A stretch of 64,000 bases of DNA from an uncultured Gemmatimonadales bacterium. Its GTDB lineage: Bacteria; Gemmatimonadota; Gemmatimonadetes; Gemmatimonadales; GWC2-71-9. This document shows positions 17,386 through 24,318 of the stretch, one piece after another. The notes under the pieces are model-generated. The model searched no databases. It saw only the letters and a list, made by a program, of their open reading frames with translations, and was not told where the DNA came from. The stretch covers positions 79,511 through 143,510 of the forward strand of contig CAWJMT010000012.1 in NCBI GenBank assembly GCA_963844035.1, given 5' to 3'. Position numbers and translations under genes: made by a program. Position 1 is the stretch's first letter. The number at the start of each line of letters is the position of its first letter.

Positions 17386-17435
17386 GGGCGAAAGATAGGG
17401 AAAACGGGTACCTTTTGCCAAGCCGACCAACACCG

Positions 17436-18482
17436 ATGCCCGACACCTCCCCGCCGCTCCAGCAAGCGATTTCCGCCCTCGCCAACCGCCAGTCCCTCAG
17501 CGAGCGACTCGCCGCCGACGTGTTCAATGCGGTGATGCGCGGCGAAGCGAGCCCTGCACAAATCGCGGCGCTCCTCATGGGCCTGCGGGTCAAGGGAGAG
17601 ACAGCGGAAGAAGTCGCCGGCGCCGCTCGGGCCCTGCGCGACGCGATGGTACGGGTCGAGGCCGACACGACCCACCTTGTCGATACCTGCGGCACCGGGG
17701 GAGGCACCGTCGGGACCTTCAACATCTCGACGGCCGGAGCGCTGATCGCGGCGGGCGCCGGGGCGAGCGTCGCCAAACACGGCAATCGGTCGTTCACCTC
17801 GAAGTGCGGCTCGGCAGATGTCTTGGAAGCCCTGGGCGTGACGATCCGTCTCGATGCCGCCGCCGCCGCGCGCGTGCTCCGCGACGCCTGCATCACCTTT
17901 CTGTTCGCACCGACGTTTCACCCCGCGATGCGCCATGTGGGCCCGGTGCGGGGTGAGCTGGGGATCACATCCGTCATGAACATGATCGGTCCGCTTGCCA
18001 ACCCGGCGGGGGTGCGGCGCCAGGTCTTGGGCGTGGCGGATCGGGAGCGCGCCGTGTTGATGGCGGACGCGCTGGCACGGCTCGGGGTGGAGCACGCGAT
18101 GGTGGTACATGGACGGGTGGGGATGGACGAGATCTCTCCCCAGGGAGTGACGGATGTGTGGGAGGTGCGGGGTGGCGCCGTCACGCTGTGGGAGATTGAC
18201 CCCGCAGCGCACGGGTGCGCGGTCGCGGATGTCACGCTGTTGCGCGGCGGCGTGCCGGCCGAGAACGCCGGGCGGATCGAGCGGCTGTTGAGTGGGGCGA
18301 AGGACGGTGACGCGGCCGGACGCGCGGCGTCCCTGCTGAATGCCGGGGCTGCCCTGTACGTGGCGGGGCTCGCTCCGACCTACGCCGCGGGCGTGACGCG
18401 GGCCGGTGCGGCGTTGGACTCGGGCGCGGGCCGGGCCGCCCTCGAGCGGCTGCGCCGGGCGAGTGCTAGCACTTCCGGATGA
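17436..18482 (+). CDS. trpD: Anthranilate phosphoribosyltransferase
   Basis: DTCGTGG, FNIST, KHGNRS, GSADVLE, GPLANP. Confidence 0.96.
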   Translation: MPDTSPPLQQAISALANRQSLSERLAADVFNAVMRGEASPAQIAALLMGLRVKGETAEEVAGAARALRDAMVRVEADTTHLVDTCGTGGGTVGTFNISTAGALIAAGAGASVAKHGNRSFTSKCGSADVLEALGVTIRLDAAAAARVLRDACITFLFAPTFHPAMRHVGPVRGELGITSVMNMIGPLANPAGVRRQVLGVADRERAVLMADALARLGVEHAMVVHGRVGMDEISPQGVTDVWEVRGGAVTLWEIDPAAHGCAVADVTLLRGGVPAENAGRIERLLSGAKDGDAAGRAASLLNAGAALYVAGLAPTYAAGVTRAGAALDSGAGRAALERLRRASASTSG

Positions 18483-19074
18483 CGCCGACGACGATGCCCT
18501 GGACCATGATGTCGCGCTCGTTCACCCGCAGCGGGGCCATGCTCGGATTCGCCGGCTGAAGGCGAATCCAACCACCGGGTTCACGGTAGAACTTTTTGAC
18601 CGTGGCGCTGTTGCCGTGAACCAGGGCCACGACCATCTGGCCGTTGTCGGCCTGGTTCCGCTCATGTACGATGACGAAGTCGCCATCCCGGATCTGCTCG
18701 TCGATCATCGAGGTGCCGCGCACCTTGAGCACGTAGCTCCGCCCGCGGCGCGGAATCAGCTCGTCCGGAACCGCGATGGTGTCCGTGCCGTCGATGGCTT
18801 CGATGGGCTCGCCCGCGGCCACGAGGCCGAGCAGCGGCAGCTCGGTGGCCCCGGTCTGGCCCTTGGGGGGCACGATCTCGATCGCCCGGCTTTCGTTATG
18901 AGCGCGGCGGATGAACCCCTTCCGCTCGAGGTTCGTGAGGTGCTCGTGGACCGTCGCGAGCGACTGAAAACCGAACTGCTGGGCGATTTCTTCGAAGCTT
19001 GGGGCGTACCCCTTGTCGTCGATATGATGAGCGACAAAGTCGAAGATTTCGCGCTGGCGGCGTGTTAGCGGCAC
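18466..19074 (-). CDS. lexA: LexA SOS repressor
   Basis: LTRRQREI, GYAPSFEEIA wHTH, VAAG cleavage site, GTSM catalytic Ser, TVKK catalytic Lys. Confidence 0.97.
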   Translation of the reverse strand: MPLTRRQREIFDFVAHHIDDKGYAPSFEEIAQQFGFQSLATVHEHLTNLERKGFIRRAHNESRAIEIVPPKGQTGATELPLLGLVAAGEPIEAIDGTDTIAVPDELIPRRGRSYVLKVRGTSMIDEQIRDGDFVIVHERNQADNGQMVVALVHGNSATVKKFYREPGGWIRLQPANPSMAPLRVNERDIMVQGIVVGVIRKC

Positions 19075-19082
19075 CTGGTCTC

Positions 19083-19124
19083 CCGAAAATAAACCGAAGT
19101 TAATCTACCCGATAAAAGCCCGAA
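19083..19124. promoter_or_regulatory. Candidate LexA operators: two CCGAW-N6-CCGAA direct repeats flanking the lexA -10 (TAGATT, minus strand)
   Basis: CCGAA-aataaa-CCGAA (19083-19098) and CCGAT-aaaagc-CCGAA (19109-19124) in the 57-nt lexA/trpC spacer. Confidence 0.6.
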
Positions 19125-19131
19125 CGCAAGC

Positions 19132-19935
19132 ATGGCCCAGATTACCCTCGACACGATCCTGGCGGCGACCCGAACCCGGGTGGCAGCCCTTCGGGCACGC
19201 ACCCGGGAGCTGGAGCGGCGGGCGGCCCAGGCGCCCACGCCCCGCTCCTTTGCGGCGGCGCTGCGCGGAACCACCGTGGGAGTGATCGCGGAGGTCAAGC
19301 GCCGCTCGCCGTCCGTGGGGGCGATCGCGGAGGGTCTGGACCCCGTGTCGCATGCGGCGGCGTACGTTCGGGGCGGTGCCGTGGTCATCTCGGTGCTGAC
19401 CGACGAGGCGCATTTCGGTGGCTCGCTCGAGGATCTGGAGCGAGTGGCGCGGGAGGTTTCCTGTCCAGTGCTGCGCAAGGACTTTATTCTCGATGAGCTG
19501 CAGATCGTCGAGGCGCGCGGGGCGGGTGCGAGTGCGGTCCTGCTCATCGTCCGGGCGATGGATGCCCAGCGGCTGCGGGACCTTTCCCGTACGGCCCGCG
19601 ATCTCGGACTGGGCGTTCTGGTCGAGGCCCACAATGCACCAGAGCTCGAAGCGGCGTTGGCTGCCGAGCCGACCGCGCTGGGCGTGAACAGTCGGGATCT
19701 GGCGACATTTACCGTCGATCATAAGGCGGCTGAGCGACTCGTCGCGCGCGTGCCGCCCGGCATCGCCGCCGTTGCCGAGAGCGGCATCGAGCGGCGCGCC
19801 GATGTCGAGCGGTTTGCGGCCGCGGGTGCAGACCTGGTGCTGGTGGGGACGGCGGTAGCGCGCACGGCGGATCCGGCCGCCGCCGTCCGGGAGTTGTGTG
19901 GTGTGCCTCGGCGCGGGCGGCCGGGGGTGGCATAG
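19132..19935 (+). CDS. trpC: Indole-3-glycerol phosphate synthase
   Basis: [32 protein letters not shown]. Confidence 0.96.
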
Positions 19936-19964
19936 TGGGCGCCTCCAAGCGGAAGGATCAGAGC

Positions 19965-21173
19965 GTGAGCGTTTCTCCCCCAGTCGCGGCTGATACGGTG
20001 GGCAGGTTCGGTCCCTACGGGGGCCGATACGTGCCCGAGACATTGATGGCGGCGCTCGAGGAGCTGACGAGCGTGTATGCCGCTGCCCAGGCCGACCCGG
20101 CCTTCGCGGCCGAGCTTGACGGTCTGCTGAGCGACTTTGTCGGCCGGCCCACGCCGCTGACGGAGACGCCGCGTCTCTCGGCCGCGGTCGGAGCGGGCGT
20201 TCGCGTAGTGCTCAAGCGGGAAGACCTGAACCACACCGGCGCGCACAAGATCAACAACACGCTGGGTCAGGTCCTGCTGGCACGTCGCATGGGGAAACGC
20301 CGCATCATCGCCGAAACCGGGGCGGGCCAGCACGGGGTGGCTACCGCCACGGTGTGCGCGCGGTTCGGGCTCGAGTGCGTGGTCTACATGGGCGAGGAAG
20401 ACATGCGCCGGCAGCGTCTCAACGTGTACCGAATGGAATTGATGGGTGCGAAGGTAGTTCCGGTGACGTCTGGAACGCGGACGTTGAAGGATGCCACGAA
20501 CGAGGCCCTGCGCGACTGGGTGACCAACGTTACGGGGACGCACTACATCATCGGGTCGGTCGTGGGCCCCGATCCGTTTCCCCGCATTGTGCGGGACTTC
20601 CAGGCCGTGATCGGGCGGGAGACGCGACGGCAGGTGCTGGAGCGGTTCGGTCGCCTGCCGACCACCGTCGTGGCGTGCGTCGGCGGGGGGTCGAACGCGA
20701 TGGGGATATTCAGCGCTTTCTTGGACGATCGTGGGGTCGAGCTGGTTGGGGTGGAGGCTGCGGGTGAGGGAATCGGGACGACCCGCCATGCCGCCTCGCT
20801 CAGCCTCGGCAAGCCGGGGGTGTTCCACGGGAGCTTGAGTTACCTGCTGCAGGACGCGGACGGGCAGGTGCAGCCCGCTCATAGCGTGTCCGCGGGGCTC
20901 GACTATCCGGGTGTCGGGCCCGAACACGCTTTTCTGAAGGACTCGGGACGCGTATTGTATGAAGCGGTCACGGACCGGGCGGCCCTCGAGGCGTTTGCGG
21001 GGCTCTCCCGGCTCGAAGGGATTTTGCCAGCATTGGAAAGCGCGCATGCCGTGGCGTGGGTGTTGGGCCGCCGGGGCCACTGGAGTGAGGGCGATATCGT
21101 GATCATCAACTTGAGTGGTCGTGGCGACAAAGACGTCGCCATGGTGGCCGAGCTCTCCGGAGCTACGATCTGA
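19965..21173 (+). CDS. trpB: Tryptophan synthase beta subunit
   Basis: [50 protein letters not shown]. Confidence 0.97.
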
Positions 21174-22849
21174 CCGGGACGCCGATTCCTGAGCTGGCGC
21201 TCCCGCCGTCACATGTCGAGGACCTGCTTCAGGTTCTCGTGAAGGGCCTCCGCGCCACTCAGCTGTACCTCCCCAACAACCCGGTTTACCAGCGAGCCGT
21301 CGAGAATATCCGCGCGGCCTTTCGCAAGGTCTGGCAGTCGATCGACGTGCTCAACCTCGACGTGGGGGAGACCGCGCTGAGCTGGGAGGAGGCGGTCGTC
21401 TACAATCAGGAGCAGCGCGCGGAAAGCGTAGCCTGGACGCTGTACAAGGACGGCATCCGATCAATCGCGCTGCGGCCCGGCGTCGAGGAGACCGAAATCG
21501 TCCGCTTTCTCGCGGTGCTCCACAAGTCGAAGAATGTGACCTCCGACGCCGCCGATGACCTGCTGACGCTGCTGTGGGCGGAGGACTTCCATTTCATCGC
21601 GTACACGTTCCGCGAGCTCGCCACCGAGAACGCGACGCCGATCGAGGCGGGAGAGACGATCCCCTCCGCGGCGCCGGCCACGATCCGTACCGCCGTCGAG
21701 GAAGAGGCTCCGCCGCGGCCTGCCGGCATCGTGTCGATGGAGGATTTCGACACGACGCTGTATTTCCTCGAGGACCGCGAAGTCGAGTATCTGCGGAAGG
21801 AGGCGGAGCGCGAGTACGGGCAGGATCTCCGCCGCAACGTTCTGGCGATGCTGTTCGATCTGCTCGAACTGCAAACCTACGGCACGGTGCGGGCCGAGCT
21901 GATCGGCATCGTCGAGAACTTCATCCCGTACCTGCTGGGCGCGGCGGACTTCCGATCCGTCGGATATATCCTGCGAGAGACGCGGGTGGTGCTGGAGCGG
22001 GCGCGGGAGCTGATTCCCGAACAGCGCGCGATCCTGGTGGGGCTCCCCGCCCGGCTCTCCCAGCCCGAGCCGCTGGCGCAGCTGCTGCAGTCGCTGGACG
22101 AAGCGACGATGCCACCGTCCGAGGAAGAGCTCGCTGAGACGTTCGGTGAAATGCGGCCGGAGGCGCTGCCCACGCTGATGGGATGGATTCCACGGCTCAG
22201 CAACCCGATGGTGCGGGATCTCGTCAATGCGTCCGCCTCTCGTCTGGCACAGGAGCACGCCGGCGAAGTGCTCAAGGTGCTGGGGAGCGCGGAGGACCCG
22301 GGCGCGCAGCTCGAGATGGTGCGCCTGGCGGGCCGCCTCAAGCTGCCCGGCGCCATCGAAGCGATGGGCCCGCTGTTCACAGCCGGCGACCGGACGCTGA
22401 AGCTCGCCATCGTCGACGCGCTGCTGCAGGTCGCCTCGCCGACGGCGCTGCGGCTGCTCGAAAAGGGTGTGGACGATACCGATCGGGACGTGCGGATCGC
22501 CGCTGTAAAGTTTCTGGCGGCGCGCGGGCATCGCAACGCGCTCGCCCGCGTGGAGGCGGCGTTGACGAGTCCACAGCTCAAGGCGGCGGACCTCACCGAG
22601 AAAATGGCGTTCTACGAGGCGTTCGGCACGCTGGCGGGCGCGAAGGGAGTGCCGGCCCTCGCCAAGGTGCTGGTGACCAAGGGGGTGTTCGCGCGGAAAG
22701 AAGATCCTGAGACGCGCGCCTGCGCCGCCATGGCGCTCGGCAAGATCCGCACGCCGGACGCGCGCGCGGCGCTGGAGGCGGCGACCCAGGACAAGGAGCC
22801 GCTGGTTCGGAACGCCGTGACCCGCGCGCTGCGCGAGGTGGGATTGTGA
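21170..22849 (+). CDS. HEAT-repeat protein with an uncharacterised N-terminal domain (start uncertain, 21170-21239)
   Basis: C-terminal HEAT-like repeats ([30 protein letters not shown]); the frame is open back to the trpB stop. Confidence 0.8.
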
Positions 22850-24310
22850 GCGAGCCGGGCGCCCGCCGCTCCACGATGGTCGAGACCGTCCAGACCACGG
22901 ACGGGTTCCTGCGCCACGCCGGCCGGGACTTTCTCGTCGTGCTCTACACGGCGTTTCGCTCGCTCAAGCTCTACCCGATCGAAAACGCGCAGGTGCAAAA
23001 GGCGCTGGACGAGCTGCTGACCACGACGAAGCACCTGCTCGAAGTGGAGCGTGAAATCGAGCTGCGCATGCAGGGGGAATTCATCTTCGTGAACTCCACC
23101 CGCCTGCGCCTCGACCTCGATAACTACGCGTCGTTCTCGCACATCCTCGGGGTGTTCAAGCAGTGCAGCATCGGCGGCATCCGCATTGACGAAGGCGTGG
23201 ATCGCCGCCAGCTGCAGATTTTCGTGTCGCTGCTCCTGTCGTACGCCGCCCGGGAGGCCACGCCGGAAAAAATCGCCGAGATCGCTCAGAAGATGATCGA
23301 TGGCGGAGTCACGTTCATCAGCGTCGAGCCGCCCGTCGAGAGCGACGAGGACGTGCAGGACGCGGAGCGGCAAAAGGAAGCAGCGAAGCGCACCTATGCG
23401 CAGTCGGTGGCGGTGACCAAGGAGGTCATCAACAGCGTGCGCCTGGGCCGGACCGCCAACGTGAAGAAGGTCAAGCGCGCGGTGCAGGCGATCGTGGACC
23501 AGGTGCTGAACAACGAAGCGTCGCTGGTGGGCCTCACGACGCTGCGGGACTACGACGAATACACGTTCACACACTCGGTGAACGTGTGCATTTTCTCGGT
23601 CGCACTTGGCCGCAAGCTCGGCTTTGAGAAACTGCAGCTGTACGATCTCGGCCTGGCGGCGTTGTTCCACGACGTGGGCAAGTCGCGGGTGCCGCTCGAC
23701 GTGCTGAACAAGGTGGGTGGTCTGTCGGACGAAGAGTGGCGTATCATGACGGCCCACCCGTGGCTGGGCGTGCTCACCCTGTTCGGGATCCGCGGCTACG
23801 GTGAGATTCCGTACCGGGGGATGATCGTAGCCTACGAGCACCACATGAAGACCGACCTGACCGGCTATCCCAAGTCCATCCGGCCGCGCGAGATTTCGAT
23901 CTTCTCGAAGATCGTGGCGGTCGCGGACGGGTTCGATGCCGCGACCAGCCGCCGCACCTACCAGACCGTGCCGATTCAACCCGACCAGGTGCTCAAGGAA
24001 ATGTGGGAGAACCCCCGGCGCGGATACGACGGCGTCGTGGTGAAGGCGTTCATCAACCTCATCGGGATCTATCCGGTCGGCACGTGCGTCATTCTCGACA
24101 CGCACGAGCTGGCCGTCGTCCACGCCGCGAACGCGAACGTGAGCGAGGTGCACCGGCCGGTGGTGCGCGTCGTCGCGACGCCGGAAGGGGCGCTGCAGCA
24201 CCCCGGTGTCCTGGTGGATCTCGCGGAACGCGACGCCGATGGCAAATATCCCCGCACGATCGTCAAGGTGACCGACCCGCAAAAGTACGGCATCAACGTC
24301 AGCGACTATT

Positions 24311-24318
<8 letters not shown>
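22846..24318 (+). CDS. HD-GYP domain cyclic-dinucleotide phosphodiesterase
   Basis: YTFTHSVNV, HDVGK, HHMKTDLTGYP, VADGFDA. Confidence 0.9.

What the first reader, a model, noticed from the sequence alone, without database searches (positions are those of the whole stretch)
19083..19124. Candidate new SOS box: direct repeat CCGAW-N6-CCGAA, twice, at the lexA promoter
Seen: the AT-rich 57-nt lexA/trpC spacer holds two copies of an 11-bp-period direct repeat (CCGAA-aataaa-CCGAA; CCGAT-aaaagc-CCGAA), one on each side of the lexA -10 (TAGATT). No E. coli CTGT-N8-ACAG or Gram-positive GAAC-N4-GTTC palindrome is present. Known: lexA usually autoregulates through promoter-proximal boxes, and alphaproteobacterial LexA binds a direct repeat of the same period (GTTC-N7-GTTC). 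Inference: a distinct direct-repeat LexA motif for this lineage, which I do not know to be described. It may also affect the divergent trpCB promoter.
Basis: partly seen in the sequence, partly recalled or inferred. Interest (0 to 1): 0.7.

Follow-up and report, generated by a model that had tools for sequence, protein, structure and literature searches.

The report
LexA SOS box of Gemmatimonadota
The two short repeats in front of the lexA gene are real, are conserved across a little-studied group of soil bacteria and recur before their DNA-repair genes, so they are likely the sites where the DNA-damage repressor LexA binds: a known kind of switch, of the same repeat type as in Patescibacteria, seen in another phylum.

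Summary
Observation confirmed. On the lexA strand the spacer holds TTCGG-N6-TTCGG twice (19109-19124, 19083-19098): one copy between the -35 and -10, one over the inferred start site. The host is a Gemmatimonadales bacterium. All 108 distinct relatives' lexA promoters carry it (104 twice; shuffles 1.3). It precedes recA in 31 of 31 loci and an SplB-like gene in 22 of 30, but uvrA in only 2 of 30 and ruvA in 0 of 30. The four best genome-wide sites lie before lexA, recA, imuB-dnaE2 and the SplB-like gene. In other classes of the phylum, LexA residue 44 is Lys instead of Glu and the box reads TTCGC. Patescibacteria (Microgenomates) lexA promoters carry the same repeat at the same place, with the same recognition helix, and a LexA motif is published for that group (paper not held). 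So this is very likely a true SOS operator, but not a new motif type. I found no Gemmatimonadota description in print. No conserved trpC promoter lies under the boxes. Binding is untested. The scan reported this motif 13 times before on other genomes.

The parts
19109..19124 (-). Box 1 (distal): TTCGG-N6-(A)TCGG, one mismatch; fills the spacer between the lexA -35 and -10
   Evidence: In 145 of 150 lexA promoters a box is flanked by TTG and TAnnnT, 16-17 nt apart in 144 of them
19083..19098 (-). Box 2 (proximal): perfect TTCGG-N6-TTCGG; covers the inferred transcription start and abuts the GGAG ribosome-binding site; best-scoring site in the genome
   Evidence: Begins 2-4 nt after the -10 in 116 of 141 promoters with a second box
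19102..19107 (-). Predicted lexA -10 hexamer TAGATT
   Evidence: Sequence; TAnnnT conserved after box 1; start site not measured
19124..19129 (-). Predicted lexA -35 hexamer TTGCGT, 16 nt from the -10; its last base is the first T of box 1
   Evidence: Sequence; TTG conserved before box 1
18466..19074 (-). lexA, 202 aa, GTG start; recognition helix S38-L-A-T-V-H-E44-H; Ala87-Gly88 cleavage site, Ser122 and Lys160 present
   Evidence: TIGR00498; PF01726 + PF00717; alignment to solved LexA structures
19132..19935 (+). trpC, divergent neighbour; its start codon is 2 nt from the lexA -35; not shown to be controlled by the boxes
17415..18482 (+). trpD, convergent neighbour overlapping the lexA 3' end by 17 nt (context only)

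Best explanation
The two TTCGG-N6-TTCGG repeats sit on the predicted lexA promoter and are likely LexA operators (SOS boxes) through which LexA would repress its own gene, and the same box before recA, imuB-dnaE2 and an SplB-like gene likely puts these under the same control. Shown: the repeats; their fixed position and orientation; their conservation; their presence before these genes; an intact canonical LexA. Inferred: one LexA dimer binds each 11-bp-period repeat, with both DNA-binding domains facing the same way on one face of the helix. Box 1 would block RNA polymerase at the -35/-10 spacer and box 2 at the start site. After DNA damage, RecA filaments would trigger self-cleavage at Ala87-Gly88 and release a small regulon centred on recombination and error-prone synthesis, mostly without uvrA or ruvA. 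Residue 44 of the recognition helix likely helps read the fifth base of the half-site.
For: Conservation at lexA: 108 of 108 distinct upstream regions, 104 with exactly two boxes; shuffles average 1.3 (max 5); 0 on the opposite strand at spacer 6. Also 25 of 25 more distant Gemmatimonadetes. Position: between TTG and TAnnnT in 145 of 150. Own genome: the top four of 244 PWM-scored sites precede lexA, recA, imuB-dnaE2 and an Rv2578c/SplB-like radical SAM gene. Relatives: recA 31 of 31 (shuffle 0.36); SplB-like gene 22 of 30 (shuffle 0.41); single cases before dnaE2, imuA-like genes, imuB, a UvrD helicase and gyrB. Exact motif 547 times in 41 genomes against 131 for the reversed control (my sums). 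Protein-site covariation: with Glu44 the fifth base is G in 575 of 582 half-sites (150 loci); in other classes with Lys44 it is C in 41 of 44 and never G (15 loci). TTCGC boxes there also precede a dinB and a umuD-like gene. Residue 44 aligns with E. coli Glu45, a DNA-contact residue according to PMC11442139. Microgenomates LexA has the same helix and the same repeat between TTGAC and the -10 (65 of 71 within one mismatch).
Against: No binding, expression or start-site data; the RNA runs held only contigs and were uninformative. uvrA has the box in 2 of 30 and ruvA in 0 of 30. In Lys44 classes recA had no core box within 1.4 kb in 9 of 10. The residue-44 rule fails for the second half-site in Microgenomates (Glu44, yet T 41, C 20, G 0 of 61) and is loose at recA (first half T in 8 of 33). 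Six of the 10 exact sites in the own genome are not before known SOS genes. The genomes are related, so the counts are not independent.
Confidence: 0.93

Rival explanations
1. The box is a real DNA-damage operator, but a different regulator binds it (for example a WYL-domain activator of the PafBC or DriD type, or a DdrO-like repressor; examples recalled), and lexA is only a target.
For: Binding is untested. The regulon lacks uvrA and ruvA. Gemmatimonadota may encode other damage regulators (not searched).
Against: Two copies cover lexA's own promoter. The box position (between -35 and -10, and over +1) fits a repressor. The box's fifth base switches with LexA residue 44 between classes. An unrelated phylum with the same LexA helix has the same repeat at lexA.
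Confidence: 0.05
2. The repeats are sigma-factor promoter elements or an RNA hairpin/terminator, conserved for transcription itself and not for repressor binding.
For: Box 1 touches the -35. In recA/imuB/splB boxes the spacer often reads TATAT followed by TT, like a -10. A weak terminator-like hairpin overlaps box 1 (1 found, 1.1 expected).
Against: The half-sites are invariant while the spacer varies freely. The same word occurs at different promoter positions (spacer, over +1, around the -10). It is confined to damage genes and absent before uvrA and ruvA. Direct repeats cannot pair with each other.
Confidence: 0.015
3. The boxes mainly serve the divergent trpC-trpB genes (a tryptophan or shared regulator).
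For: lexA sits between trpD and trpC in 103 of 125 loci. All 119 trpC-adjacent promoters have two boxes, against 19 of 26 others. The trpC start codon lies 1-2 nt from the lexA -35 in 87 of 120.
Against: Boxes persist at all 26 lexA promoters without a detected trpC. They are oriented and spaced on the lexA promoter. No conserved trpC-strand promoter was found (at most 4 of 120 at any position). The same box precedes recA and imuB.
Confidence: 0.01

Closest known systems
Patescibacteria LexA-binding motif (Sanchez-Osuna, Barbe, Erill 2017, Environ Microbiol 19:3465, PMID 28618189; paper not held)
   Same: Microgenomates-type lexA loci (relatives named Shapirobacteria/Woesebacteria) have helix SL[AS]TVHEH and TTGAC-TTCGG-N6-TTCG(T/C) between the -35 and -10, the position of box 1 here. 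Collierbacteria and Parcubacteria LexA are listed as experimentally validated from this paper. It is cited for direct-repeat recognition. I recall its consensus as TTCGG-N6-TTCGG but could not see it.
   Different: Different phylum. In my Microgenomates sample there is one box at lexA, not two, and no exact TTCGG-N6-TTCGG (0 of 71; the second half mostly ends in T or C). DNA-binding domain identity is only 50-54%.
Alphaproteobacteria / Acidobacterium capsulatum LexA box GTTC-N7-GTTC (passages of PMC8565304 and PMC3323433; Acidobacterium paper seen by title only)
   Same: Direct repeat with an 11-bp period; shares the TTC-N8-TTC core in register.
   Different: Here the base before TTC is free (A46/C84/G64/T20 of 214) and GG after it is nearly invariant. 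No exact GTTC-N7-GTTC at this promoter.
Gram-positive LexA box GAAC-N4-GTTC (passage of PMC3323433)
   Same: Related half-site core (GAA/TTC).
   Different: A palindrome, not a direct repeat; absent here.
Balneolaeota direct-repeat LexA motif (PMC7739468, passages)
   Same: Direct repeat; small regulon of lexA, recA, translesion polymerases, a helicase and a radical SAM protein.
   Different: Unrelated sequence (TTACA(C/T)A-type repeat).

Membership tests
LexA operator (SOS box) | Adjacent gene encodes a canonical LexA (winged-helix domain + S24 peptidase, Ala-Gly site, Ser/Lys dyad) | tested here: met
LexA operator (SOS box) | Conserved sites overlapping lexA's own promoter | tested here: met
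   108 of 108; 145 of 150 between -35 and -10
LexA operator (SOS box) | Same site before recA and translesion-polymerase genes | tested here: met
   recA 31 of 31; imuB-dnaE2 and SplB-like gene in own genome; 22 of 30 SplB-like genes
LexA operator (SOS box) | Site before uvrA / ruvA (common but not universal regulon members) | tested here: not met
   uvrA 2 of 30, ruvA 0 of 30. An optional feature: PMC8565304 names lexA, recA and error-prone polymerases as the core
LexA operator (SOS box) | Sequence-specific binding by LexA and RecA-dependent induction after DNA damage | not testable with these tools
   Needs gel shift and expression assays; RNA contigs uninformative
Patescibacteria-type direct-repeat LexA box | TTCG-N7-TTCG repeat at lexA with the same recognition helix | tested here: met
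   65 of 71 within one mismatch of TTCGG-N6-TTCGG; helix SL[AS]TVHEH in 73 of 73
Patescibacteria-type direct-repeat LexA box | Identity with the published consensus | tested here: inconclusive
   Paper not held; no paper quoting the motif was found; consensus recalled only
Alphaproteobacterial GTTC-N7-GTTC box | Conserved G before TTC in both half-sites | tested here: not met
   G in 64 of 214 at the first half and 43 of 214 at the second
Palindromic boxes (E. coli CTGT-N8-ACAG; Gram-positive GAAC-N4-GTTC) | Inverted repeat at the lexA promoter | tested here: not met

The most novel reading that the evidence does not exclude
Gemmatimonadota, Patescibacteria and probably Acidobacteria share one widespread, under-recognised class of LexA that reads TTCG-N7-TTCG head-to-tail. 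Within it, one helix residue acts as a switch (Glu44 gives TTCGG, Lys44 gives TTCGC) that has flipped more than once. This would be a natural one-residue recognition code, and a direct handle on how a symmetric LexA dimer binds a direct repeat.
Probability: 0.4. Interest if true: 0.5.

Novelty: new member of a known kind. Interest (0 to 1): 0.3.

Why it matters
It gives an abundant, barely studied soil and water phylum a predicted SOS box and a predicted small regulon: lexA, recA, imuA/imuB/dnaE2 and an SplB-like gene, mostly without uvrA or ruvA. This can be tested with one gel-shift series. The Glu44/TTCGG versus Lys44/TTCGC contrast within one phylum is a ready-made test of LexA base recognition. 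It does not change the picture of the SOS response: direct-repeat LexA boxes are known, and this repeat is shared with Patescibacteria.

Tried and rejected
Literature: nine full-text searches found no Gemmatimonadota LexA motif and no paper quoting TTCGG-N6-TTCGG. The list of validated LexA proteins in Table S2 of PMC8565304 has no Gemmatimonadota entry. The 2017 Patescibacteria paper, the Verrucomicrobia paper and the LexA-DNA structure paper were not held, and most subscription journals are not searched, so absence from print is not proven. RNA: three small-share metatranscriptome runs held only contigs and cannot show a start site or strand. One 248-nt contig spans the spacer without mismatch but could come from DNA. 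The sigma-70 consensus scan did not call the lexA promoter; the -35 and -10 rest on conservation. recA in Lys44 classes gave no second-locus support (1 of 10); dinB and umuD gave one case each. Ten TTCGG-type matches in five Lys44 genomes (12 in the control) were not annotated. dnaE2 orthologues were counted but their upstream DNA was not fetched; dinB was not surveyed. The LexA tree (42 chosen proteins, FastTree, midpoint root) has weak deep support, so I draw no conclusion on origin or transfer. I could not obtain named Acidobacteria or Parcubacteria lexA loci. A conserved trpC-strand promoter was sought and not found.

Full report
Observation. The window shows CCGAA-aataaa-CCGAA at 19083-19098 and CCGAT-aaaagc-CCGAA at 19109-19124. 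They lie in the 57-nt spacer between lexA (18466-19074, - strand) and trpC (19132-19935, + strand), both identified with NCBIfam. On the lexA strand they read TTCGG-N6-TTCGG, with one mismatch in the distal copy. Two matches in 64 kb are not rare as such (10 of 100 shuffles), but four copies of one 5-mer in two same-period pairs arose in only 1 of 5000 shuffles of the spacer. No E. coli, Gram-positive or exact alphaproteobacterial box is present. All 80 closest named lexA loci are Gemmatimonadota, mostly Gemmatimonadales.

Conservation at lexA. Of 110 loci, two were duplicates. All 108 distinct 150-nt upstream regions hold the box with at most one mismatch: 104 have two boxes, 3 have one and 1 has three. 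Shuffles give 1.3 regions on average, and the opposite strand gives none at spacer 6. Over 214 sites the ten half-site positions are almost invariant, while the spacer is free except for a T preference two bases before the second half. A phylum-wide search supplied more distant genomes. I fetched 40 of them; all 25 from the class Gemmatimonadetes have the box. In 145 of 150 promoters a box lies between TTG and TAnnnT (16-17 nt apart in 144), and a second box starts 2-4 nt after the -10 in 116 of 141. In the window this gives -35 TTGCGT (19129-19124), box 1, -10 TAGATT (19107-19102), then box 2 and the GGAG ribosome-binding site. These promoter elements are inferred from conservation; the consensus scan did not call them.

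Regulon. The own genome has 10 exact sites. With a matrix built from lexA sites alone, the four best of 244 candidates precede lexA, recA, imuB-dnaE2 and an Rv2578c/SplB-like radical SAM gene. The other six exact sites are not before known SOS genes. In relatives the box precedes recA in 31 of 31 loci (the 30 best-scoring relatives from 41 genomes plus the own; shuffle 0.36). It precedes the SplB-like gene in 22 of 30 (shuffle 0.41), uvrA in 2 of 30 and ruvA in 0 of 30 even over 1.4 kb. It always points in the direction of transcription of these genes. Thirty sites from five further genomes included dnaE2, two imuA-like genes, imuB, a UvrD helicase and gyrB, along with several unrelated genes. 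The exact motif occurs 547 times in 41 genomes, against 131 for the reversed control (my sums). This small regulon centred on error-prone repair resembles that described for Balneolaeota (PMC7739468, passages). Related genomes are not independent samples.

Is LexA the binder? This is not shown directly. The protein is a canonical LexA with its cleavage site and catalytic residues, and its recognition helix (residues 38-46, SLATVHEHL) is invariant in all 108 sequences. With Glu44 (150 loci) it is G in 575 of 582 half-sites. In 15 genomes from other classes of the phylum LexA has Lys44; 14 have a core box, and the base is C in 41 of 44 half-sites and never G. There, TTCGC boxes also precede a dinB and a umuD-like gene, but recA had none within 1.4 kb in 9 of 10. 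Residue 44 aligns with E. coli Glu45, which PMC11442139 (one passage) names among the DNA-contacting residues. A Glu-cytosine versus Lys-guanine contact on the opposite strand would explain the switch (my inference). Two divergent Glu44 proteins that fall outside the main Gemmatimonadetes clade also have TTCGG, but the tree is weakly supported. The rule is not strict: see Microgenomates below, and the first half at recA is T in 8 of 33.

Comparison with known boxes. A profile search returned a LexA with the same helix whose named relatives are Shapirobacteria and Woesebacteria. Eighty metagenome loci of this type (73 distinct, 71 with at least 100 nt upstream) carry TTGAC-TTCGG-N6-TTCG(T/C) followed by a -10. 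Of the 71, 65 are within one mismatch of the Gemmatimonadota box and none is exact; shuffles give 0.15. So the repeat, its promoter position and the helix are shared with Patescibacteria, although Glu44 there goes with T or C at the end of the second half (T 41, C 20, G 0 of 61). LexA proteins of Collierbacteria and Parcubacteria are listed as experimentally validated from PMID 28618189 (Table S2 of PMC8565304), and PMC7739468 cites that paper for direct-repeat recognition. I could not read it; my recollection that its consensus is TTCGG-N6-TTCGG is untested. The alphaproteobacterial GTTC-N7-GTTC box (passages) shares the period and the TTC core but not the flanks. Nine searches found no Gemmatimonadota LexA motif, and Table S2 lists none. 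What I saw of each paper: passages of PMC7739468, PMC8565304, PMC3919608, PMC11442139 and PMC3323433; two parts of the PMC8565304 supplement plus term searches of its supplement and of PMC7739468's; the rest as listings only. Supplements and text of the papers not held could bear on novelty.

trpC. lexA lies antisense between trpD and trpC in 103 of 125 loci. Boxes persist at all 26 promoters without a detected trpC (19 with two boxes, 7 with one), and no promoter-like pair is conserved on the trpC strand (at most 4 of 120 at any position). Direct control of a trpC promoter is therefore unsupported. No terminator-like site was found on the + strand between trpD and trpC, so read-through across lexA, with bound LexA as a possible roadblock, remains open. 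The RNA contigs could not decide this.

Verdict. The feature is real and very likely (0.93) the LexA operator of the class Gemmatimonadetes, with a TTCGC variant in the phylum's other classes. It is a new member of a known kind: direct-repeat SOS boxes are established, and this repeat is shared with Patescibacteria. The scan noted the same motif in 13 findings on other genomes; these are unchecked AI notes and not independent support. Interest 0.3. The testable extra is the residue-44 switch.

Noticed in passing
window 17415-21173: lexA sits antisense inside the trp genes: trpD overlaps its 3' end by 17 nt and the trpC start codon abuts its -35. Both neighbours are present in 103 of 125 loci. 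With no + strand terminator and no conserved trpC promoter, trpD transcripts may read through lexA as antisense RNA.
   Followed up: partly
window 21239-24318: A HEAT-repeat protein gene and an HD-domain protein gene (PF13487) lie between trpB and the trpA-like gene.
   Followed up: no
L111:6040-10938 (G000:C1): The own genome's imuB and dnaE2 are split over several reading frames, while close relatives have open frames of over 1000 aa for dnaE2; probably assembly errors.
   Followed up: partly
L551 (G027:C4:96206) and L540 (G004:C55:1892): Perfect boxes directly before gyrB and before a UvrD-family helicase gene: possible lineage-specific regulon members.
   Followed up: no
L217 and L237 (uvrA loci): Two genomes have a perfect box close to the uvrA start (about 35 nt before the matched region) while 28 have none, suggesting occasional gain of uvrA control.
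   Followed up: no
L117, L118, L120, L122, L127, L132, L133 (recA, family f2): In one family the first half-site at recA is TTCGT instead of TTCGG.
   Followed up: partly
L199 (G129) and L203 (G139): Two Gemmatimonadetes genomes have divergent LexA proteins outside the main clade, yet keep Glu44 and TTCGG boxes.
   Followed up: partly
G025, G027, G029, G031, G033, G035, G039, G005: Seven of the eight genomes of family f2 show a second, distant LexA-like match (26-34% identity), and G005 one at 40%; their targets are unknown.
   Followed up: no
e.g. P0037, P0049-P0051, P0059: Many LexA relatives are 430-840 aa fusions with an N-terminal LexA and a long C-terminal part that was not annotated here.
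   Followed up: no
G000:C27:94953-95100 (L113): An intergenic stretch with a perfect box and several further TTCGG/CCGAA words, with no SOS gene recognised nearby.
   Followed up: no
G000:C11:5161 and C25:37615: Two perfect matches lie inside near-identical paralogous coding regions; probably not operators.
   Followed up: no
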